From Candidatus Hodarchaeota archaeon (GTDB lineage: Archaea > Asgardarchaeota > Lokiarchaeia > Sigyniarchaeales > SOKP01), in the NCBI GenBank assembly GCA_048886685.1, contig JBHLKM010000012.1, positions 577 through 64,576 on the forward strand: a DNA stretch of 64,000 bases. The letters are read 5' to 3'. This document shows positions 20,183-42,915 of this stretch, one piece after another; the stretch's first letter is position 1, and each line of letters opens with the position of its first letter. The position numbers and the translations under genes are program-made. The notes below the pieces were generated by a model, which saw only the letters and a list, made by a program, of their open reading frames with translations, ran no database searches and was not told where the DNA came from.

Positions 20183-22510
20183 TTGAAACTATTTATGGTT
20201 GATTTTGAAGAATTTTTACGTTATCTAAAGTCTCAGGATTATTACCATAACCAAATATATCATATTGAACATATTCCTGAACACAGAGCTCAATATGGGG
20301 GTCTAAAATCATCCTTAAGCGCCCGTCTTCAACGATGGTTAGAGAATAACAACATTAAACTATGGCGTCACCAAGCAGAAGCTATAAATCTAATTCGCAA
20401 AGGCACGAACACTGTTATTGTAACTTCTACCGCTTCTGGAAAATCTCTTTGCTATAATCTTCCTGTATTACAATCAATACTTGAGGAACCAAAAACTACA
20501 GCTCTCTATGTCTTCCCTACTAAAGCTTTAGCTAGAGATCAATTTGTTGTTCTCTCTCAGCTTTTAGCGGGAACAAAAATAAATCAAAATAGGATTGGTG
20601 TTTATGATGGGGATGTAGATGCCAATGAAAAGAGATTCATATTAAATAATGCTAATATAATAATTACAAATCCTTATGGGCTACACTTTTATTTACCTTG
20701 GTTTAAACAAAAGTGGCGAAGAATCTGCCAGAATCTAAAGTATATTATTTTAGATGAAATTCATATTTATCGAGGGATTTTCGGTTCTAACTTCGCTCTA
20801 TTGCTCAGAAGATTAAAAAGAATGCTTGGTACGTATAATATAAAACCTCAATGGATCTTATCCAGTGCTACAATTAATAATCCTAAAGGCTTCTCCGAAA
20901 AATTAATAGGAGAAGAGGTTGAGGTTGTAGATAGAGATGATTCTCCCTCAGGACCTAAAAAAGTAATCTTATGGGATTTGCCGTATGACGAAATTTCAAA
21001 GAAGTATCGTTCACCACACCAAGAAACTAAAAATCTTTTTCTCAGTCATTTAAAATTTAAAGATGGGATACAAACATTAACCTTTACCTTATCAAGAAAA
21101 ATGGCTGAATTGCAGGCAATATGGGCTAGAGAAGCTATCCCTGTTTTAAAAGATAAAATCTTTAGTTATCGAGCTGGGATTAGTAAATCTAAAAGGAGAG
21201 AAATAGAACAAAATTTCAAAAATAAAAAGATTTTAGGAATAAGTTCTACTAATGCTCTTGAATTAGGAATAGATATAGGCTCTTTAGATGCTACGATAAG
21301 TTCTGGATTTCCAGGAACGATCTCGAGTTTCAAACAACAAATAGGACGCTCTGGGAGAGGGACCGATCTCTCCGTCTCAACTCTTATCCCCATGCCTGAT
21401 CCTTTAGATTTCTTTTATGTCCATAATCCTGATCAGTTATTTGGACCAATCCAAGAAGAAATACTCATAACTTTAAATAATAAATACATTATAAAAAACC
21501 ATTTATGCTGTGCCTCAAAAGAAATTCCTATTAAAATTAATGAGTATGAGAAATTTGGAATTCTCGATAAAGAACTATTTATAGAATATTTGGAAGACTT
21601 GATTTCAGAATCTTTACTTATGAAAAGAGGAGATCGATATTATTGGAATAGCGATTTCTTTCCAAATGAAATATATGGATTAAATGATATTTCAACCAAA
21701 AGTTATAAAGTCATATTAAGATCGGGTTCAAATGAAGAACTCTTAACAGTTGAGGATGAAAGTTTTGTATTTCGAGATTTACACCCAGGTGCTGTATATC
21801 TTTACGAGGCTGAATCATATATCGTAGATGAGCTTGATTTAGAGGAAAGAAGTGTATATCTTTCTAAATCGAATGTAGATTTTTACACGCAATCTTTAAA
21901 ACATACAGATATTACCCCTCTTGAGGTACTATATGAAAATAAAAGTGGAATAAAAAGCAGAATTAATTCATATTTTGGTATTGTAAAGGTAGAACATGAA
22001 TATTATTCCTATAAAGTTGTTGATACCATAACACAGGAGCTACGCTCGAGACATCCATTAGAGGATATTCCAATCATTACATTTGAGTCAATGGCTTTAT
22101 GGTTTACAATACCTTTTGATTACCAAAAAGAATTAGAATTGGGAGGATTTGATCTTGGTGGGACTATCCATGCTATAGAACATGCTATGATAGCGATGTC
22201 TCCAGCTTTAGCTCAGATTTCAAGATGGGATTTAGGGGGCTTTTCCATAGATTTCGATCCTATAAAGCAGCAGCCAATAATTTACATTTATGATGCTTAT
22301 AAAGGAGGTATTGGAATATCAGAAATGCTATATTTTAATATTAATGAATTAATGAAAAATGCATATAAATTAATTAAATCTTGTAGTTGTAATTCAAAAA
22401 ATGGCTGTCCTGGTTGTATAATGTCTCCAAAATGTGGAAATTCTAACGATCCATTAGATCGCGCTGGAGCCTTATTTTTATTGAATAAGCTTATTGGTGA
22501 AAATCAATAA
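20183..22510 (+). CDS. DEAD/DEAH-box helicase with C-terminal DUF1998 zinc-binding domain (YprA/MrfA/Hrq1-like)
   Basis: Walker A (TSTASGKS), DEIH box (ILDEIHIY), helicase C motifs (QQIGRSGRG), and a C-terminal Cys cluster (CSCNSKNGCPGCIMSPKCGNSNDPLD). The real start may be the ATG at 20195. Confidence 0.8.
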   Translation: MKLFMVDFEEFLRYLKSQDYYHNQIYHIEHIPEHRAQYGGLKSSLSARLQRWLENNNIKLWRHQAEAINLIRKGTNTVIVTSTASGKSLCYNLPVLQSILEEPKTTALYVFPTKALARDQFVVLSQLLAGTKINQNRIGVYDGDVDANEKRFILNNANIIITNPYGLHFYLPWFKQKWRRICQNLKYIILDEIHIYRGIFGSNFALLLRRLKRMLGTYNIKPQWILSSATINNPKGFSEKLIGEEVEVVDRDDSPSGPKKVILWDLPYDEISKKYRSPHQETKNLFLSHLKFKDGIQTLTFTLSRKMAELQAIWAREAIPVLKDKIFSYRAGISKSKRREIEQNFKNKKILGISSTNALELGIDIGSLDATISSGFPGTISSFKQQIGRSGRGTDLSVSTLIPMPDPLDFFYVHNPDQLFGPIQEEILITLNNKYIIKNHLCCASKEIPIKINEYEKFGILDKELFIEYLEDLISESLLMKRGDRYYWNSDFFPNEIYGLNDISTKSYKVILRSGSNEELLTVEDESFVFRDLHPGAVYLYEAESYIVDELDLEERSVYLSKSNVDFYTQSLKHTDITPLEVLYENKSGIKSRINSYFGIVKVEHEYYSYKVVDTITQELRSRHPLEDIPIITFESMALWFTIPFDYQKELELGGFDLGGTIHAIEHAMIAMSPALAQISRWDLGGFSIDFDPIKQQPIIYIYDAYKGGIGISEMLYFNINELMKNAYKLIKSCSCNSKNGCPGCIMSPKCGNSNDPLDRAGALFLLNKLIGENQ

Positions 22511-22667: not shown

Positions 22668-23198
22668 TTGTCAAACTCAGATTTTACATTTAAGATAGTT
22701 ATTTTTGGGGATCCTCAAACAGGAAAAACTACACTTACACATAGATTTTTGACTAATATGTTTAAGGAAGATTTTCAAATGACTCTCGGCGTGGATTTTT
22801 TACTAAAAATGGTTAAATTGCAAGGTGAGAATATAAAACTACAGATTTGGGATTTTGCGGGAGAGGAGAGATTCAGATATCTTTTCCCATCTTATATCAG
22901 AGGTGCTAACGGGGGCATTTTTATGTATGATATTACTAATTATAGATCTCTTGCTCACGCAGATGAATGGTTTGAAATTGTTGAAAGTGAGATTGATTAT
23001 GATTTACCTATAATTTTTGTAGGCGGAAAGACCGATTTGATACATCTCAAAGAAGTTTCAACAAGAAAGGCAAAAGAAGTTGCAACATCAAAAAAAGCTA
23101 ATGTTTATATAGAGTGCAGCTCAAAAACTGGAGAAAATGTTCAAATCATTTTTGAACTACTAACAGAACTTATTTTTAAGAATTTAAAAAGACCTTAA
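22668..23198 (+). CDS. Rab-like small GTPase (Ras superfamily), copy 1 of a tandem pair
   Basis: G1 GDPQTGKT, switch I TLGVDF, G3 WDFAGEERF, G4 variant GGKTDL, G5 CSSKTG. TTG start. No C-terminal Cys prenylation motif. Confidence 0.85.
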   Translation: MSNSDFTFKIVIFGDPQTGKTTLTHRFLTNMFKEDFQMTLGVDFLLKMVKLQGENIKLQIWDFAGEERFRYLFPSYIRGANGGIFMYDITNYRSLAHADEWFEIVESEIDYDLPIIFVGGKTDLIHLKEVSTRKAKEVATSKKANVYIECSSKTGENVQIIFELLTELIFKNLKRP

Positions 23199-23350
23199 AA
23201 CCAATCATACCTCAAAGAAATCGTTTTAATCATTAAAGAATGGAAATAATTTTCTATAATAACTGCAAAAGCGTCAGAAAAAGTTATATTGCTAATAAAT
23301 CTCAACGTCTAATTGATTTTTATGATATTTCTTCACGGAAATTAAATTTC

Positions 23351-23372
23351 GAATTTAATGTTAAATTTTTAA
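23351..23372 (+). repeat. second copy of the 22-nt upstream element
   Basis: Identical to 22555..22576. Confidence 0.5.
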
Positions 23373-23452
23373 AGAGTAAAAATAATATTATACTTAACTT
23401 TAGCATTAACCTAATCTATTAGGTAAACTGTTAATTTAAATTCATAATCATA

Positions 23453-24004
23453 ATGAATCAGGTATTTGGGTTGTCAGATTCTTATACATTTAAAATAGTC
23501 ATATTCGGAGACTCTCAGACGGGAAAGACTTCTCTAACTCACAGATTTTTAACGAATCTTTTTAAGGAAGATATCCAGATGACTTTAGGGGTAGATTTTT
23601 TACATAAAGAAATTGAAATGAATGGTGAAAATGTAAAACTACAGATTTGGGATTTTGCTGGTGAGGAAAGGTTCAGATTTCTTTTTCCCTCTTATATCAG
23701 AGGAGCTAATGGAGCAATCTTTATGTATGACATTACTAATTATGGCTCTTTGGCTCACGTAGATGACTGGTTTGAGATTTTTGAAAAAGAAATTGATTAT
23801 GACTTACCCATAATCTTTGTTGGTGGAAAAACTGATTTAATACATCTCAAGGAAATTTCAACAAGAAAAGCAATGGAAGTTGCGAACTCAAAAAATGCCG
23901 ATGGTTTTATAGAGTGTAGTTCAAAAACAGGAGAAAATGTCCATAAGATATTTGACTTATTAACAAGATTAATCCTAACAGATAAATTAACTACTGAAGT
24001 ATAA
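23453..24004 (+). CDS. Rab-like small GTPase, copy 2 of the tandem pair
   Basis: Same motif set as copy 1 (GDSQTGKT, TLGVDF, WDFAGEERF, GGKTDL, CSSKTG). By eye, roughly four fifths of aligned residues are identical to 22668..23198. Confidence 0.85.
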   Translation: MNQVFGLSDSYTFKIVIFGDSQTGKTSLTHRFLTNLFKEDIQMTLGVDFLHKEIEMNGENVKLQIWDFAGEERFRFLFPSYIRGANGAIFMYDITNYGSLAHVDDWFEIFEKEIDYDLPIIFVGGKTDLIHLKEISTRKAMEVANSKNADGFIECSSKTGENVHKIFDLLTRLILTDKLTTEV

Positions 24005-24147: not shown

Positions 24148-24654
24148 ATGAGTAAAGAATTAAAATTAAAATGGAGTGATCTTGTATCTCCCACAATGAG
24201 CCCCGATGATTATTTAAATGAGTTTGGAGAAAAAATTGAATTAAACTATAAAACATATGAACCAAAAGTAGATGCATTAGAAAAAATTAAAGCTCTATTG
24301 GAGAACAAGAACGAAAAGTTAAAGATTTTGGCATTAGGAGCTGATTGGTGTCCAGATTGTAACAGGAATGTACCAAGGATGATAAAAAATATTAAGACTA
24401 TCAAATCAGATGATATTGATCTGAGAATTTTATACGGGGTAATGGTAAACACTCTTCATAAACCCGGCGATACTATATGGCATAAAAAAAGATCTCCACC
24501 TGAGGCAGTGGATCCTAAATTTGATTTAAAAAAAATTCCTACATTTTACTTCTTCAATGGTAATGATGATCTCATTGGTATTATTGTGGAAAATCCTAAA
24601 TGGGAATCCACTCTCGAAGAAGATCTCCTTGAAATCTTAGAAGAAAAACTATAA
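24148..24654 (+). CDS. thioredoxin-fold protein
   Basis: 168 aa with a WCPDC active-site-like motif (GADWCPDCNRNVP) and a later IPTFYFF strand typical of the thioredoxin fold. Confidence 0.6.
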   Translation: MSKELKLKWSDLVSPTMSPDDYLNEFGEKIELNYKTYEPKVDALEKIKALLENKNEKLKILALGADWCPDCNRNVPRMIKNIKTIKSDDIDLRILYGVMVNTLHKPGDTIWHKKRSPPEAVDPKFDLKKIPTFYFFNGNDDLIGIIVENPKWESTLEEDLLEILEEKL

Positions 24655-24750: not shown

Positions 24751-25497
24751 ATGATTATTAGGGATGAAACTAAATTGTATGGTTTTAAAAGCCTGATGTA
24801 TCGTAGTGGTTGGCTCTACAATGCAATAACAAGAAGACTTTACGACCAAGATACAAAGTTTTTAATAATTGCTAAATTGATAGGTAAAGGACCAAAAAGA
24901 GTTTTAGATTTACCGTGCGGTACAGGATATTTGATGCGTTTCTTGCATCCTTTGATTGAATATGAAGGTGTTGATCTAAATTATCGATTTTTGAAAAGAA
25001 TTAAGAACAAAGAATTAAAAAAGCGGAATATAAAATTGAAAAAAATTGTATTAAAACAAAAAGATATTTTCGATTTTCAAGATTGCTTAGGAGAAAATTT
25101 TGATGTCATTGTAATCTCTGATATTTTACACCATATTTATCCTAGACATGTTGATTTAATTAACATGGCAAAGAAATCCGCGCGAAAAGTAATTATTTGC
25201 GAACCTTATGCTGTAAAACCAAAAGAAATCAATGCTAGAGATAAGTTATTTAAAATCATCGTTTATTTTGGGAAATTTTTACCATTATCTATCTACAAAA
25301 TAATTGATTTTCTTTTCCTAGATAATGATGGGATTAACCCTTATCATAAGAGAGATAAGTGGAGTTTTGATTTTAAAGGCCTTAAAGAATTTTACAAAAC
25401 CATGGGATTCAATCCAAGTTTTTCTTTAAGAGACGAATATATAGGGGTTTGGGAATCAACAGCTCCCCTATATTTAGAAAGCTCTTCAAATAAATAA
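24751..25497 (+). CDS. class I SAM-dependent methyltransferase
   Basis: Motif I VLDLPCGTGY. An acidic residue follows beta2 (EGVDLN). Post-motif DVIVISDILHH. Confidence 0.7.
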   Translation: MIIRDETKLYGFKSLMYRSGWLYNAITRRLYDQDTKFLIIAKLIGKGPKRVLDLPCGTGYLMRFLHPLIEYEGVDLNYRFLKRIKNKELKKRNIKLKKIVLKQKDIFDFQDCLGENFDVIVISDILHHIYPRHVDLINMAKKSARKVIICEPYAVKPKEINARDKLFKIIVYFGKFLPLSIYKIIDFLFLDNDGINPYHKRDKWSFDFKGLKEFYKTMGFNPSFSLRDEYIGVWESTAPLYLESSSNK

Positions 25498-25537
25498 TAT
25501 AAAATACATGAATTAATTTATATTATTAACAAAGATA

Positions 25538-26194
25538 TTGAGGACTCCTTTGAAATTAACTCTCAGTTTGTGGGATATAGCTGGTCAAGAACGATTTGAG
25601 TTCTTTAAAACAGATTTTTTTAGAGGGATTGCAGCAGTTGGCTTAGTATTTGATTTATCTCGCCCTGATACTTTTGATTTAATAGAAGAATATTTTGATG
25701 ACATACGAGACCGGTCCGGAAATATTCCAATTATTCTGGTGGGTAATAAAAATGATTTGAAAAAGGACATTGGCGAAACAGTTCCTCGTGAAAAAATAAT
25801 TCAAATGGTAAATCAATATAATCTTTTTGAATATATTGAAACCTCAGCATTAGAAAGGAAAAATGTTGAAAAATTGTTTTATCGGTTAGCTCTAACAGCA
25901 TTATTAGATATAAAACCAAGGTTAGGAGAGGTTATTGATACACATCACTTCAGGTTCAAAATATTACTTGTCGGAGCAGCTGCAGTTGGAAAATCTTCGT
26001 TGATTGGTTCATTTGTTAAGAAGGAATTTGAAGAATCGTATAAATTGACTGTAGGCTTAGACTTTATGATTCAAGATCTTGAAATTGAAGAAGAGGATAT
26101 TCCTAAAGAAACTCACGAGTTAGTTAAAAATTCAGTTAAATCCTATAAGAAACGGATTAAAAAAATACATAAATTAGAAGAATCACTTCACTAG
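25538..26194 (+). CDS. circularly permuted Rab-like small GTPase (G3-G4-G5-G1-G2)
   Basis: Starts (TTG) at beta3/G3 LKLTLSLWDIAGQERF, then G4 LVGNKNDL, G5 ETSAL and the C-terminal helix. After a linker comes P-loop FRFKILLVGAAAVGKSSL, then switch I YKLTVGLDF and beta2. An in-frame stop lies at 25514-25516. Confidence 0.7.
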   Translation: MRTPLKLTLSLWDIAGQERFEFFKTDFFRGIAAVGLVFDLSRPDTFDLIEEYFDDIRDRSGNIPIILVGNKNDLKKDIGETVPREKIIQMVNQYNLFEYIETSALERKNVEKLFYRLALTALLDIKPRLGEVIDTHHFRFKILLVGAAAVGKSSLIGSFVKKEFEESYKLTVGLDFMIQDLEIEEEDIPKETHELVKNSVKSYKKRIKKIHKLEESLH

Positions 26195-26227: not shown

Positions 26228-27247
26228 TTAAGAAAATATATATTTTTCATAGTTATGCTTGCAGGGAGGGCCTATTGTTGCCAATAATTGAATTGGATCT
26301 GATTTCTCATTAATTTCCGTTATCCAAGAGTAGATCGTACCGCTTTTTATACCTTCAAATTCAATATGGTTGCAAACGCCCTTTTTATGGGAACTAAGGA
26401 ATTTAATCACATCATTCATAGCTATTTTACTTTTCCGATTTTCAAGGAAATTTTTTACTTTGTTGAATCGTTCCATACTATTGGGAAAAACCAATGCGGG
26501 ATCCGAAAATTGTTTCAAGGATTTAGCTTGGTAATGATTAGTGGTATATAGATAATTATTTTTGGCACATGTCACAGATATATGCGGAGGGGCAGTTTCT
26601 ACTCGAGCAAAATTTTCTTCTTTATCAGCGATCATAAAGATTTGTCCTCTTACATGAGGGATTTTCTCAAGAAAAGAAACTACTTCTTCCGTGGTTTGAC
26701 AATTATCCAGAATCCATCTAGTTGATAAATTCATTCGGATTCCTGGCTGCCATTTGCCCTTGTAATCTCCAGCAATAAGTATAGCAAGTGTTAATCCAGA
26801 TTCATTTTTTCCTCCATAAATTCCTATCATATGATCTGAAAATGATATACTTTTCAATTTTCCCTCTGGATGAATGAACATTACTTCGCAGAAATCTTGG
26901 AAGGATTCATCCCAATCATAATTCCGAGCAAAAATGGGAAAACCTGCTTCTGTTAGATCGCCTCCAATTGCAAAAACCGTACAATCAATTCCTAGAGGAT
27001 TAAACAACTCATATCCTAAGGCTAATAAAAATGCTTCCATTGAGTCCAAATCATAATTCCCTCCATCACAGAAACCTTTTATTTCTTCAAGCAAATCTGG
27101 GATGTATTGCTTTGCAATTTCTTTACATCGACGGCTAAATTCTAATTTCTTTGGGGGACATGGTGGTGGCTGGAAAAAACGTTTTACTTGAGAACCAATT
27201 TTAAATCCTATATCATAATACTTTCCCATAAAAACATTTTTTTTCAT
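26228..27247 (-). CDS. Ntn-hydrolase, peptidase C45 / acyl-CoA:6-APA acyltransferase-like
   Basis: 339 aa. Putative self-processing nucleophile context (GIDCTVFAIGG) and ARNYDW segment, as in the C45/choloylglycine hydrolase-type fold. Confidence 0.5.
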   Translation of the reverse strand: MKKNVFMGKYYDIGFKIGSQVKRFFQPPPCPPKKLEFSRRCKEIAKQYIPDLLEEIKGFCDGGNYDLDSMEAFLLALGYELFNPLGIDCTVFAIGGDLTEAGFPIFARNYDWDESFQDFCEVMFIHPEGKLKSISFSDHMIGIYGGKNESGLTLAILIAGDYKGKWQPGIRMNLSTRWILDNCQTTEEVVSFLEKIPHVRGQIFMIADKEENFARVETAPPHISVTCAKNNYLYTTNHYQAKSLKQFSDPALVFPNSMERFNKVKNFLENRKSKIAMNDVIKFLSSHKKGVCNHIEFEGIKSGTIYSWITEINEKSDPIQLLATIGPPCKHNYEKYIFS

Positions 27248-27385: not shown

Positions 27386-27592
27386 ATGAGTATTGACCAG
27401 CTTGAAGAACAGAAAGAAGAATTATTGGACAAAATAGAAGCCCTTGAAGAAAAATGCGATACTTTAGAGCTGTGTGAGGAGCCTGATGGTTGTGAAAAAT
27501 GCGAGAATTATGCGGAAATAGAATCACTTTCTGCTAAGGTGGAAGAAATAGAAGATAAAATCGAGGAATTAATGGGAGAAGATGAAGAATAA
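27386..27592 (+). CDS. small acidic coiled-coil protein with a Cys pair cluster
   Basis: 68 aa, very E/D rich, with CDTLELCEEPDGCEKCENY in the centre. Confidence 0.35.
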   Translation: MSIDQLEEQKEELLDKIEALEEKCDTLELCEEPDGCEKCENYAEIESLSAKVEEIEDKIEELMGEDEE

Positions 27593-41277: not shown

Positions 41278-41787
41278 CTAAAGATTTTTAATGATTTCTT
41301 TTGCTAATAATCTAAACGCTAAATCCACGTTTACGCCCGTTTTGGAAGAAATTTTTAAATACTTAAAAAAACCATACTTCTCTGGAAAGCTCCGCGCAAA
41401 TTTATCTTCGACAGTAATCGAATCTCTTAAATCTAATTTAGATCCTAGGAAGATTATAGGGATTCCTGGATTTTCACCTCTACATATGTTAACCCATTGT
41501 TCAATATTTTCTAAACTTGATGGGCGTGTAAGATCAAATAATAATAAAGCACCTTTTGCCCCTAAAGAGTAATCTTTCAGTAAAGGTCTAAAATGGTCTT
41601 GTCCACCAAAATCCCAAACCTGCAAAGTAATTGTTTCTCCTTTAATATACATCTCTTTGAGAAAGAACTCTACGCCTAAGGTCATCTTTGTGTCTGCTAA
41701 AAATTTCCCTTCCACATACCGATACAGAAGTGTTGTTTTTCCTACACCTCCATCTCCGGCAGTAATGACCTTTAATAATTTGGACAT
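41278..41787 (-). CDS. Rab/Ras-like small GTPase
   Basis: G1 GDGGVGKTT, switch I TLGVEF, G3 WDFGGQDHF, G4 variant GSKLDL, G5 ISSKTG. No prenylation Cys. Confidence 0.85.
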   Translation of the reverse strand: MSKLLKVITAGDGGVGKTTLLYRYVEGKFLADTKMTLGVEFFLKEMYIKGETITLQVWDFGGQDHFRPLLKDYSLGAKGALLLFDLTRPSSLENIEQWVNICRGENPGIPIIFLGSKLDLRDSITVEDKFARSFPEKYGFFKYLKISSKTGVNVDLAFRLLAKEIIKNL

Positions 41788-41953: not shown

Positions 41954-42397
41954 TTAAGATCTTTCGATGGATAAATATTTTTTTTGTCGAAGAAAAATTG
42001 TATTTATATTTGATAATCTTGCTTTTCTACGTAATTCAGAATCATTTGTTGCTAAAAAGGTAATATATCCTTCCTCCTTTAACTCTAAGGTTTTCTGCAA
42101 GAGGAATGCATCAGTCAATTCACTGGGCTCTTTAGTGTCTTCTAAGTAGATTATTTCATAATTGGCTTTATTCTTCTCTAGATATAATAACCCAGAATCT
42201 AGCAATCTTTTGAATTTTGTACTCTTTGATTGTCTTCTCCTTTTAGCTTCAAGCTCATCTAATATCTGTTTAAATATAACAAATCGTAATTTTCCTTCCA
42301 ATTTTAACCTAATTTCACTTAAATAATCTATTTTAAACTGATAAGGAAGTAGAATAAAGTTTGAATCAATTACTATTAGATTAATATTAGACTTCAA
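41954..42397 (-). CDS. PIN-domain nuclease, Fcf1/Utp24-like
   Basis: VIDSNFILLPYQFKIDYLSEI (first Asp), ILDELEA, TDAFLL, LATNDSELRRKARLSNINTIFLRQKKYLSIE. The TTG start overlaps the TGA stop of the upstream GTPase gene (TTGA). Confidence 0.6.
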   Translation of the reverse strand: MKSNINLIVIDSNFILLPYQFKIDYLSEIRLKLEGKLRFVIFKQILDELEAKRRRQSKSTKFKRLLDSGLLYLEKNKANYEIIYLEDTKEPSELTDAFLLQKTLELKEEGYITFLATNDSELRRKARLSNINTIFLRQKKYLSIERS

Positions 42398-42915
42398 TAA
42401 GTCTGTCGCTCTAAGATTTTTTTTGTTAAAATATCAAATGCTTGACTTACATTTTCACCCGTTTTTGATGAAATTTTAAGAAAGTCAATTAAATTATATT
42501 CATTGAGAAATGACCTAGCATAATCATCATCCACTTGAATTTCATCTTCCAAATCTAATTTAGTACCTAGAAAAAGAACGGGAAGATTCGGGTCTCCCTT
42601 ACGAACGATGCCAAGCCACTGTTCAAGATTTTCCAATGTCATCATCCTTGTAAGATCAAACATAAGCAGTGCTCCTTTTGCTCCAAGCACATAACTTTCA
42701 AGAAGGAATCGAAAACGCTCTTGTCCTCCAAAATCCCAAAGTTGCAGGGTGCACTGTTTACCATCAATTTCTGTCTCTTTTAAAAAGAATTCAACACCAA
42801 TAGTCATGCGAGTGTCTGCCGAGAATTTACCTTCTACGTACCGATGTAAGAGTGTTGTTTTTCCAACACCCCCTTCTCCAGCTGTTAAAATTTTTAATAT
42901 AAACTTCTGTGGCAT
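42394..42915 (-). CDS. Rab/Ras-like small GTPase
   Basis: G1 GEGGVGKTT, switch I TIGVEF, G3 WDFGGQERF, G4 GTKLDL, G5 ISSKTG. Paralog of 41278..41787. Confidence 0.85.
   Translation of the reverse strand: MPQKFILKILTAGEGGVGKTTLLHRYVEGKFSADTRMTIGVEFFLKETEIDGKQCTLQLWDFGGQERFRFLLESYVLGAKGALLMFDLTRMMTLENLEQWLGIVRKGDPNLPVLFLGTKLDLEDEIQVDDDYARSFLNEYNLIDFLKISSKTGENVSQAFDILTKKILERQTY

What the first reader, a model, noticed from the sequence alone, without database searches (positions are those of the whole stretch)
25538..26194. Circularly permuted Rab-like small GTPase with motif order G3-G4-G5-G1-G2
The ORF opens directly with beta3 and switch II (LKLTLSLWDIAGQERF, aa 5-20). It continues through a canonical G4 (LVGNKNDL, aa 67-74), G5 (ETSAL, aa 101-105) and the terminal helix (VEKLFYRLALTALLD). 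After a short linker (KPRLGEVIDTHH) it restarts with beta1 and the P-loop (FRFKILLVGAAAVGKSSL, aa 138-155). Switch I/G2 (YKLTVGLDF) and beta2 (MIQDLEI) follow, then a charged tail. Each G motif occurs exactly once, so this looks like one G domain cut in the beta2-beta3 hairpin with the native termini joined. It does not look like a fragment: the in-frame stop at 25514-25516 and the methyltransferase ending at 25497 leave no room for an upstream P-loop, and a convergent gene starts at 26228. The known cpGTPases (RbgA/YlqF, RsgA/YjeQ, YawG/Lsg1 families) have order G4-G5-G1-G2-G3 and are not Rab-like, so this is a different breakpoint in a different family. The tandem Rab-like pair 2 kb upstream shows the raw material for the classic route of duplication, fusion and truncation.
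Basis: partly seen in the sequence, partly recalled or inferred. Interest (0 to 1): 0.88.

Follow-up and report, generated by a model that had tools for sequence, protein, structure and literature searches.

The report
Circularly permuted Rab-like GTPase of Asgard archaea
This gene encodes a real, strongly conserved small GTPase of Asgard archaea whose Rab-like domain is circularly permuted (it starts at strand 3 and ends at strand 2); the same rearrangement is known from the eukaryotic cpRAS domain, so this is a second, independent and apparently undescribed archaeal case, not a wholly new kind.

Summary
The ORF 25538/25550..26194 (+) encodes one Rab-like G domain in the order G3-G4-G5-G1-G2. 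The cut lies exactly in the beta2-beta3 hairpin, and helix 5 is joined to strand 1 by a 13-residue linker.

It is not a fragment or an assembly chimaera:
- Full-length orthologues (63-92% identity, 206-276 aa) occur in at least 51 species-level Asgard (Promethearchaeota) genomes, in a conserved gene cluster.
- No orthologue has more than 28 open codons upstream.
- dN/dS is 0.05-0.12, and all catalytic residues are invariant.
- AlphaFold2 gives one compact domain (pLDDT 86.6, pTM 0.85).

The same order and breakpoint were published in 2008 for eukaryotic cpRAS (PMC2430557). However, cpRAS is Ras-derived and sits inside large multidomain proteins. This family is Rab-like, stand-alone and archaeal, and it never groups with cpRAS (0/200 bootstraps), so it arose independently.

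More divergent members and basal orthologues carry C-terminal transmembrane anchors after a conserved [IL]PxE motif and helix. The family is therefore probably an ancestrally tail-anchored membrane switch, and the window's copy is a derived form without the anchor. GTP binding, monomeric closure and cellular role remain untested.

Verdict: new variant of a known kind, interest about 0.6.

The parts
25550..26194 (+). Coding sequence of the circularly permuted Rab-like GTPase (214 aa from TTG 25550, or 218 aa from TTG 25538), stop codon included
   Evidence: ORF list. Orthologue N-termini MKLTLSLWD. TTG at the aligned first codon in 24 of 50 orthologous loci, and the only possible start in at least 12 of them.
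25550..25597 (+). Strand beta3 plus G3/switch II (LKLTLSLWDIAGQERF): Asp, Gly and the catalytic Gln
   Evidence: Aligns to Rab11 59-74. D9, G12 and Q13 are invariant in 47 sequences, and W8 is nearly invariant (at least 90%). Model strand E2-9, pLDDT 89.
25736..25759 (+). G4 motif (LVGNKNDL), guanine specificity
   Evidence: K67 and D69 invariant, N66 nearly invariant.
25838..25852 (+). G5 motif (ETSAL)
   Evidence: S99 invariant, T98 and A100 nearly invariant.
25865..25909 (+). Helix alpha5 (VEKLFYRLALTALLD), the last element of a canonical G domain
   Evidence: Model helix 106-119. Aligns to the end of the Rab11 and Pfam Ras profiles.
25910..25948 (+). Linker joining the old C-terminus to the old N-terminus (IKPRLGEVIDTHH), containing the family-wide P[RK]LGE motif
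   Evidence: R124, G126 and E127 are invariant or nearly invariant, including in 36-62% identical paralogues. The model shows a short strand 128-130 hairpinned onto beta1.
25949..26002 (+). Strand beta1 plus G1/P-loop (FRFKILLVGAAAVGKSSL)
   Evidence: Aligns to Rab11 6-24. G142, V146, G147 and K148 are invariant in 47 sequences; S149 is invariant among the 35 close orthologues. Model strand E133-141.
26039..26086 (+). G2/switch I threonine and strand beta2 (YKLTVGLDFMIQDLEI)
   Evidence: Y164, T167 and D171 invariant. Aligns to Rab11 about 38-57. Model strand E171-178, pLDDT 88.
26096..26191 (+). Family-specific C-terminal extension: [IL]PxE motif (DIPKET) and a long basic amphipathic helix (net charge +4, 9 Lys/Arg in 32 residues). 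In other family members it continues into a linker and transmembrane anchor.
   Evidence: P185 and E187 nearly invariant across 47 sequences. Model helix 186-213. Hydrophobic moment 0.5-0.6. TM tails in 5 of 120 close homologues, in 14 of 50 orthologous ORFs and in most divergent relatives.
24751..25497 (+). Class I SAM-dependent methyltransferase immediately upstream, co-directional, 40-52 bp gap. Conserved neighbour, possibly the same operon.
   Evidence: Pfam Methyltransf_12/31/25. Directly upstream of the orthologue in 38 of 51 genomes.
24148..24654 (+). Thioredoxin_9-like protein, a conserved co-directional member of the same cluster
   Evidence: Pfam PF14595. Present in 38 of 51 orthologous loci.
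27386..27592 (+). 68-aa very acidic coiled-coil protein with four Cys, a conserved downstream neighbour
   Evidence: Found downstream of the orthologue in 48 of 51 genomes. No family match above threshold.
22668..24004 (+). Tandem pair of canonical-order Rab-like GTPase genes (22668..23198 and 23453..24004). This is the type of arrangement from which a permuted gene can arise.
   Evidence: Pfam Ras 1-160 in both. The cp profile matches them as two swapped pieces. Similar tandem arrays with 21-160 bp gaps occur in related genomes.

Best explanation
The gene encodes a functional, circularly permuted Rab-like small GTPase. The chain runs beta3, switch II, alpha2 through alpha5, then a conserved 13-residue linker, then beta1, P-loop, alpha1, switch I and beta2, giving the order G3-G4-G5-G1-G2. 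It folds back into one ordinary Ras-type G domain. I infer that it works as a GTP/GDP switch, because every nucleotide-binding and catalytic residue and the Rab-type aromatic triad are kept: the Phe of GLDF, the Trp of LWD and switch II aromatics. The new C-terminus leaves strand beta2 at the tip of the interswitch hairpin. By standard G-domain topology (inferred, not measured on the model) this tip lies on the nucleotide-distal face, where the tail of a normal Rab also emerges. It continues into a conserved [IL]PxE motif and a long basic helix. In basal orthologues and paralogues this helix leads to a linker and one or two transmembrane segments. The family is therefore most likely an ancestrally tail-anchored membrane switch that needs no prenylation, and the window's copy is a derived form that kept only the basic helix. 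The family arose once in Asgard archaea, most simply by fusion of two tandem Rab-like genes followed by loss of the outer parts, and independently of eukaryotic cpRAS. Shown here: the order, the breakpoint, conservation, purifying selection, synteny, a confident single-domain model and separate ancestry from cpRAS. Inferred only: GTP binding and hydrolysis, monomeric closure, membrane association, the route of origin and the cellular role.
For: Order and breakpoint: two swapped alignment pieces against Pfam Ras and Rab11, and one colinear piece after un-permuting. The breakpoint sits at profile position about 57/58 in all 23 Asgard cp proteins tested.

Real gene: 120 listed homologues of 208-276 aa at 73-92% identity, from independent assemblies with contigs up to 294 kb. 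Orthologues occur in 51 species-level genomes. At most 28 (median 7) open codons lie upstream of beta3 in 50 loci. dN/dS is 0.05-0.12. The motif residues D9, G12, Q13, K67, D69, S99, G142, G147, K148 and T167 are invariant across 47 sequences of 36-93% identity.

Fold: AF2 gives pLDDT 86.6 and pTM 0.85, with beta3 at 2-9, beta1 at 133-141, beta2 at 171-178 and the C-helix at 186-213. The beta3-to-alpha5 block superposes on Rab6, Rab11 and Sec4 at 1.2-2.0 A.

Membrane link: TM tails in relatives. TM forms are basal in the cladogram.

Context: the conserved cluster Trx9, 683-aa protein, MTase, cpRab, then acid68 and ACAD.

Origin: tandem canonical Rab-like genes in the window and in related genomes. 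Tandem-fused G-domain proteins align colinearly across the domain junction.

Independence from cpRAS: cpRAS best matches K/H/N-Ras at 1e-51, whereas this protein best matches Rab11, Rab7 and Thorarchaeota Rab. The two share only 26% identity. The Asgard cp clade has 154/200 support, and it groups with cpRAS in 0/200.
Against: No biochemical or expression data exist. I could not inspect model coordinates, so pairing of the C-terminal beta2 with the N-terminal beta3 is inferred from three things: the DSSP strand assignment, pTM 0.85, and the fact that beta3 is the only partner of beta2 in this fold. The window's own copy lacks a TM segment. Its helix has only a moderate hydrophobic moment (0.5-0.6 at mean hydrophobicity about -0.45), which does not prove membrane binding. 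The P-loop GAAAVGKS is unusual, with Ala at the Ras G12 and G13 positions, and could alter hydrolysis. The phylogenies are quick NJ trees on 162 columns, not ML. The cladogram has no support values. No fused tandem intermediate was traced to the same lineage.
Confidence: 0.85

Rival explanations
1. The chain does not close on itself. Instead it forms a domain-swapped dimer or oligomer, in which the beta1, P-loop, alpha1, beta2 module of one chain completes the beta3-to-alpha5 module of another, so that GTP sites are built across subunits.
For: All motifs are present once per chain, which fits intra-chain and inter-chain complementation equally well. The long C-terminal helix (186-213) could act as a coiled-coil dimeriser. 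Anand et al., as quoted in PMC2430557, argued that breaking the beta2-beta3 turn should impair folding.
Against: The monomer AF2 model is compact and confident (pTM 0.85). The conserved 13-residue linker is long enough to join two points on the same nucleotide-distal face of the domain, the same join used by YlqF-type cpGTPases and modelled for cpRAS. No multimer prediction could be run.
Confidence: 0.1
2. It is a decaying remnant or a gene-calling or assembly artefact: the 3' part of one tandem Rab-like gene joined to the 5' part of the next.
For: This is the order a junction fragment of a tandem pair would give. Tandem pairs are common here. The start codon is TTG.
Against: The same 206-276 aa ORF occurs in 51 species-level genomes and many independent metagenome assemblies, in conserved synteny. 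dN/dS is 0.05-0.12. There are no frameshifts or internal stops. The linker and the post-beta2 motifs are conserved and absent from canonical genes.
Confidence: 0.01
3. It is an archaeal member or ancestor of the eukaryotic cpRAS family, meaning the permutation happened once and was inherited by eukaryotes.
For: The motif order and breakpoint are identical. Both have a Pro shortly after beta2: DIPKE here, and GIPDE or DIPQD in cpRAS. A 2026 paper lists CPRas as potentially present in LECA. Asgard archaea are the closest archaeal relatives of eukaryotes.
Against: cpRAS domains are almost canonical Ras (1e-51 to K/H/N-Ras, TIE G2 motif), whereas this protein is Rab-like. The two share only 26% identity. 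They never group in 200 NJ bootstraps. There is no VWA or A2M partner domain. The orthologue was not detected in Heimdallarchaeia or in cultured Loki genomes in the scan.
Confidence: 0.04

Closest known systems
cpRAS domain of eukaryotic CPRas proteins (Elias & Novotny 2008, Biol Direct 3:21, PMC2430557)
   Same: Same motif order G3-G4-G5-G1-G2. Same cut in the beta2-beta3 reverse turn. Same alpha5-to-beta1 join. Ras-superfamily G domain with all motifs intact.
   Different: cpRAS is derived from the RAS family proper (TIE G2 motif, 1e-51 to K/H/N-Ras). It is eukaryote-only and always embedded in 840-3933 aa proteins with VWA/Sec23-trunk or alpha-2-macroglobulin-like domains. The window protein is Rab-like, archaeal, and stand-alone (214 aa) or tail-anchored. 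It is 26% identical to cpRAS and phylogenetically separate.
Canonical Asgard and eukaryotic Rab-like GTPases (Pfam PF00071; e.g. Rab11, Rab7, Thorarchaeota Rab PDB 7EZB)
   Same: The best sequence and structure matches. About 34-37% identity over the beta3-to-alpha5 block, RMSD 1.2-2.0 A. Rab-like G2 (TVGLDF) and WDxAGQERF. NKxD and ETSA motifs present.
   Different: The order of segments is permuted. There is no C-terminal Cys prenylation motif. A new conserved linker (P[RK]LGE) and a new C-terminal [IL]PxE-helix extension are present. Some members carry TM anchors.
YRG / YlqF (RbgA) - YawG - RsgA (YjeQ) circularly permuted GTPases
   Same: A circularly permuted P-loop GTPase domain in which alpha5 is joined to beta1. 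This shows that the join is structurally tolerated (as described in PMC2430557).
   Different: Those have the order G4-G5-G1-G2-G3, cut after beta3/G3. They are ancient ribosome-assembly TRAFAC GTPases with RNA-binding domains. Only a sub-threshold NCBIfam YqeH hit was found (31.6 bits against a cut-off of 297).

Membership tests
Ras-superfamily small GTPase, Rab-like (Pfam PF00071) | Profile match above the curated threshold | tested here: met
   132 bits against a cut-off of 21.6, in two stretches. TIGR00231 small_GTP 65 bits against 42.5.
Ras-superfamily small GTPase, Rab-like (Pfam PF00071) | G1 GxxxxGK[ST], G2 Thr, G3 DxxGQ, G4 NKxD and G5 [ET]SA all present | tested here: met
   GAAAVGKS, T167, DIAGQ, NKND and ETSA are present. 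The core motif residues D9, G12, Q13, K67, D69, S99, G142, G147, K148 and T167 are invariant across 47 sequences of 36-93% identity; N66, T98 and A100 are conserved in at least 90%.
Ras-superfamily small GTPase, Rab-like (Pfam PF00071) | Canonical linear order G1-G2-G3-G4-G5 | tested here: not met
   The order is G3-G4-G5-G1-G2.
Ras-superfamily small GTPase, Rab-like (Pfam PF00071) | C-terminal Cys prenylation motif of eukaryotic Rabs | tested here: not met
   The protein ends ...KLEESLH with no Cys. Relatives use TM segments instead.
Ras-superfamily small GTPase, Rab-like (Pfam PF00071) | Binds and hydrolyses GTP | not testable with these tools
   Inferred only, from intact motifs and purifying selection.
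cpRAS (Elias & Novotny 2008) | Order G3-G4-G5-G1-G2, with the cut in the beta2-beta3 turn | tested here: met
   Breakpoint at canonical-profile position about 57/58 in both groups. Description in PMC2430557.
cpRAS (Elias & Novotny 2008) | RAS-family affiliation (TIE G2 motif, closest to Ras) | tested here: not met
   The G2 here is KLTVGLDF, and the best PDB hits are Rab11, Rab7 and Thorarchaeota Rab. cpRAS hits K/H/N-Ras at 1e-51.
cpRAS (Elias & Novotny 2008) | Embedded in a large protein with VWA/Sec23-trunk or A2M-like domains | tested here: not met
   A 214-aa stand-alone protein. The long paralogues have no Pfam domain other than the GTPase.
cpRAS (Elias & Novotny 2008) | Common ancestry with the cpRAS clade | tested here: not met
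   26% identity. Grouping with cpRAS in 0/200 NJ bootstraps, with the Asgard cp clade at 154/200 and the cpRAS clade at 189/200. NJ only; ML not run.
YRG/YlqF/YawG/RsgA cpGTPases | Order G4-G5-G1-G2-G3 (G3 last) | tested here: not met
   G3 is first, at residues 9-13 of the chain.
YRG/YlqF/YawG/RsgA cpGTPases | Sequence membership in the family models | tested here: not met
   YqeH 31.6 bits against a cut-off of 297. RsgA_GTPase only 16-20 bits in paralogues.

The most novel reading that the evidence does not exclude
Asgard archaea independently invented the G3-G4-G5-G1-G2 topology in a Rab-like GTPase, a topology once argued to be unfoldable. They use the new C-terminus, which exits from the interswitch hairpin, to tether the switch to membranes through a conserved helix and a transmembrane tail. 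This would be a prenylation-independent, tail-anchored 'Rab' in the closest archaeal relatives of eukaryotes. Because the hairpin is cut, nucleotide-dependent movement of beta2 could be passed directly to the anchor helix, somewhat like the Arf interswitch toggle.
Probability: 0.4. Interest if true: 0.78.

Novelty: new variant of a known kind. Interest (0 to 1): 0.62.

Why it matters
Small GTPases of the Ras superfamily are among the main 'eukaryotic signature proteins' of Asgard archaea, and how they reach membranes without prenylation is an open question.

A conserved, strongly selected family of permuted Rab-like proteins, whose basal members are tail-anchored, gives a concrete and testable answer for one lineage.

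It also provides a second, independent natural example of the G3-G4-G5-G1-G2 permutation. Anand et al. had predicted this order would not fold, and it has so far been known only from eukaryotic cpRAS, for which I found no solved structure. No PDB chain aligned colinearly over the whole model; the best TM-score normalised to the query was about 0.49.

Convergence on the same breakpoint marks the beta2-beta3 turn as a permissive site for engineering split or permuted Ras-type switches.

The short 214-aa soluble form in this window is a convenient target for structure determination and biochemistry.

Tried and rejected
1. Fragment or pseudogene of a tandem pair. Rejected on conservation, dN/dS and the absence of upstream coding room in 50 loci.

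2. Assembly chimaera. Rejected because independent assemblies from NCBI, JGI, ENA and Logan carry the same ORF in the same synteny.

3. Membership of cpRAS. Rejected.

4. Membership of the YlqF/RsgA cpGTPases. Rejected.

5. Literature search for an earlier description in Asgard or archaea. I tried 'circularly permuted'+Asgard+GTPase, 'circular permutation'+'small GTPase'+Lokiarchaeota, Asgard+'small GTPases'+permut, permuted+Rab-like+archaea, and 'G3-G4-G5-G1-G2'. Only the 2008 cpRAS paper turned up. Subscription-only papers are not covered.

6. Clues to function from neighbours. The 683-aa upstream protein and the 68-aa acidic protein have no Pfam or PDB match above noise, only coiled-coil-like hits. 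The methyltransferase is a generic class I enzyme.

7. Looking for the P0129-like long form in the species-level genome set. Only three genomes had it. The other 'long' matches turned out to be arrays of separate canonical Rab-like genes.

8. Foldseek cannot align across a permutation, so it confirmed only the beta3-to-alpha5 block.

9. A first Biopython NJ bootstrap run timed out and was replaced by a numpy implementation.

Full report
**1. The observation**

The window contains an ORF at 25538..26194 on the + strand, 218 aa from the first TTG. beta3 and switch II (LKLTLSLWDIAGQERF) lie at 5-20, G4 (LVGNKNDL) at 67-74 and G5 (ETSAL) at 101-105. Helix alpha5 follows, then the linker IKPRLGEVIDTHH, then beta1 and the P-loop (FRFKILLVGAAAVGKSSL) at 138-155, then YKLTVGLDF and MIQDLEI, and finally a charged tail.

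The in-frame TAA at 25514-25516 is present. So are the upstream methyltransferase ending at 25497 and the convergent gene whose 3' end is at 26228.

Pfam Ras matches well above threshold, but in two swapped stretches. Against Rab11 structures the native protein aligns as two pieces: residues 130-185 to Rab11 2-57, and residues 5-114 to Rab11 59-166. A version in which I placed the C-terminal block in front aligns as one colinear stretch, 3-166 to 6-166, with E = 3.5e-29. The cut therefore lies exactly in the beta2-beta3 reverse turn.

**2. A real, conserved gene**

A search of about 5.8 billion proteins listed 120 homologues of 208-276 aa at 73-92% identity, covering 87-100% of the query. They come from NCBI, JGI, ENA and Logan assemblies, on contigs up to 294 kb. 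All begin at beta3 (MKLTLSLWD...), so the likely start in the window is the TTG at 25550.

A scan of one genome per species found 51 loci with 63-88% identical full-length orthologues. These are mostly MAGs labelled Promethearchaeota or Promethearchaeia, with a few labelled Thor-, Hod-, Hermod- or Odinarchaeota. The cultured Lokiarchaeum ossiferum, Promethearchaeum spp. and Harpocratesius gave only about 43% matches spanning roughly 165 residues, which I took to be canonical-order genes but did not inspect.

In 50 loci the open frame upstream of beta3 is at most 28 codons (median 7), so none can hold an upstream P-loop. TTG is the aligned first codon in 24 loci, and the only possible start in at least 12.

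Pairwise dN/dS between the window and its orthologues is 0.05-0.12. Across 47 sequences spanning 36-93% identity, these motif residues are invariant: D9, G12 and Q13 (G3); K67 and D69 (G4); S99 (G5); G142, V146, G147 and K148 (G1); Y164, T167 and D171 (G2/beta2). This rules out a fragment, a pseudogene or a chimaera.

**3. Fold**

AlphaFold2 run with 35 close orthologues gave pLDDT 73.5 and pTM 0.75. Adding 12 divergent family members raised this to pLDDT 86.6 and pTM 0.85. The model has strands at 2-9 (beta3), 27-35, 61-66, 94-97, 133-141 (beta1) and 171-178 (beta2). A short extra strand (128-130) in the linker is hairpinned onto beta1, and a long C-terminal helix spans 186-213. Only switch I (160-167) falls below pLDDT 50.

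Foldseek, which aligns in sequence order, superposes the beta3-to-alpha5 block on Rab6, Rab11, Rab10, Sec4 and Rab43 at 1.2-2.0 A over 100-115 residues. No PDB chain aligns over the whole model: the best TM-score normalised to the query is about 0.49. I therefore found no solved structure with this chain order.

I could not read the coordinates. That beta2 pairs with beta3 of the same chain is inferred from the strand assignment, the high pTM and the sheet order of the fold. A domain-swapped oligomer remains a minor alternative.

**4. The wider family**

A full HMMER scan of 1.84 billion representatives found further proteins that match colinearly from their own N-terminus at 41-63% identity:
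- P0121, P0122, P0125, P0130 and P0142 (271-316 aa) each have a single C-terminal transmembrane segment.
- P0129, P0133, P0134, P0149 and P0140 (428-755 aa) have a long low-complexity, Pro-rich linker, a conserved domain of about 130 aa with no Pfam match, and hydrophobic segments at the end.

All share the breakpoint (canonical-profile position about 57/58), the linker motif P[RK]LGE and an [IL]PxE motif just after beta2.

Among the orthologues, 14 of 50 ORFs are 262-276 aa long and carry a TM tail. In an NJ cladogram rooted on the long paralogues, all basal branches are TM forms and the short forms, including the window's, are nested within them (no support values). The TM anchor is therefore probably ancestral. 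The window's protein is a derived form that keeps a basic amphipathic helix, with net charge +4 and hydrophobic moment 0.5-0.6.

**5. Gene context**

The orthologue sits in a conserved cluster: Thioredoxin_9-like (+), a 683-aa protein of unknown family (+), a class I SAM methyltransferase (+), cpRab (+), an HD-domain or AAT-like gene (-), a 68-aa acidic Cys4 coiled-coil protein (+), then acyl-CoA dehydrogenases.

| Neighbour | Present in orthologous loci (of 51) |
|---|---|
| Thioredoxin_9-like | 38 |
| 683-aa protein | 38 |
| Methyltransferase | 38 |
| 68-aa acidic protein | 48 |
| Acyl-CoA dehydrogenase | 49 |

The window lacks the 683-aa gene. None of these neighbours has an informative family match, so the cellular role stays open.

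**6. Comparison with what is known**

Elias and Novotny (2008, PMC2430557) described cpRAS, a Ras-family domain with exactly the G3-G4-G5-G1-G2 order and the same beta2/beta3 cut. It is found only in eukaryotes, inside 840-3933 aa proteins with VWA or alpha-2-macroglobulin-like domains. They presented it as a correction of the claim by Anand et al. that this permutation should not fold. The topology is therefore known.

Using cpRAS sequences from that paper's supplement, I found the following:
- cpRAS is nearly canonical Ras (1e-51 to K/H/N-Ras).
- The window protein is closest to Rab11, Rab7 and the Thorarchaeota Rab.
- The two are 26% identical.
- In NJ bootstraps of un-permuted sequences with 54 canonical relatives, the 22 Asgard cp proteins form a clade in 154/200 replicates and cpRAS in 189/200. 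The two groups never join (0/200).

This is therefore an independent, convergent permutation in a different subfamily and a different domain of life. Full-text searches found no description of it in archaea.

**7. Origin**

The window has four canonical Rab-like genes, two of them in tandem about 2 kb upstream. Related genomes carry arrays of two or three such genes separated by as little as 21 bp. Fused tandem G-domain proteins also exist, which the cp protein matches colinearly across the domain junction (for example P0143, residues 62-240). Duplication, fusion and loss of the outer segments is therefore the simplest route. No intermediate was traced in this lineage.

**8. Verdict**

The structural interpretation is supported, but the novelty claim must be reduced. 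This is a new, archaeal, Rab-like, stand-alone or tail-anchored variant of a permutation type already known from eukaryotic cpRAS. It is probably a membrane-associated GTP switch. Nucleotide binding, monomeric closure, membrane association and cellular role are inferred, not shown.

Noticed in passing
window 22668..23198(+), 23453..24004(+), 41278..41787(-), 42394..42915(-): Four canonical-order Rab-like small GTPase genes lie in one 64-kb window, as two neighbouring pairs. This illustrates the local expansion of this family.
   Followed up: partly
window 27386..27592 (+): A 68-aa, extremely acidic coiled-coil protein with four Cys (C..C...C..C). It lies within 4 kb downstream of the cpRab orthologue in 48 of 51 genomes and matches no family. 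Its charge is opposite to that of the basic C-terminal helix of the GTPase, so it is a candidate partner.
   Followed up: partly
L001 3187..5238 (and 37 other orthologous loci); absent from the window between 24654 and 24751: A 683-aa protein with no Pfam or PDB match and a C-terminal coiled coil sits between the thioredoxin-like gene and the methyltransferase in 38 of 51 orthologous clusters. It is missing in the window's lineage.
   Followed up: partly
window 26228..27247 (-): The convergent neighbour (Pfam AAT / peptidase C45-like acyltransferase fold) occupies this slot in only 2 of 51 related loci. In 25 of 51 an HD-domain gene is there instead, so this position in the cluster is a variable spot.
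   Followed up: partly
P0129, P0133, P0134, P0149, P0140 (C-terminal about 200 residues): The long paralogues of the permuted GTPase share a conserved domain of about 130 aa (RKTTVFYxKQMNP...PGC..VP...PLDARKD...ITP..G) followed by hydrophobic segments. It has no Pfam match.
   Followed up: partly
P0252 (EukProt, Bolivina argentea transcript, 243 aa): A Rab7-like eukaryotic sequence with the same G3-G4-G5-G1-G2 order. It could be a third independent permutation or a mis-assembled tandem transcript.
   Followed up: no
window 25538-25552 and orthologous loci L008, L011-L013, L022, L034, L039, L043, L047, L052-L054: TTG is the only available start codon for this gene in at least 12 species. An AT-rich TATA-like stretch lies about 25-30 nt upstream in the window, hinting at a short-leader or leaderless transcript.
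   Followed up: partly
window 20183..22510 (+): A 775-aa DEAD/Helicase_C protein. Its counterpart in the related locus L003 carries Hrq1-type WHD and MZB domains in precomputed Pfam hits. It lies upstream of the Rab-like pair and is syntenic in at least some related genomes.
   Followed up: no
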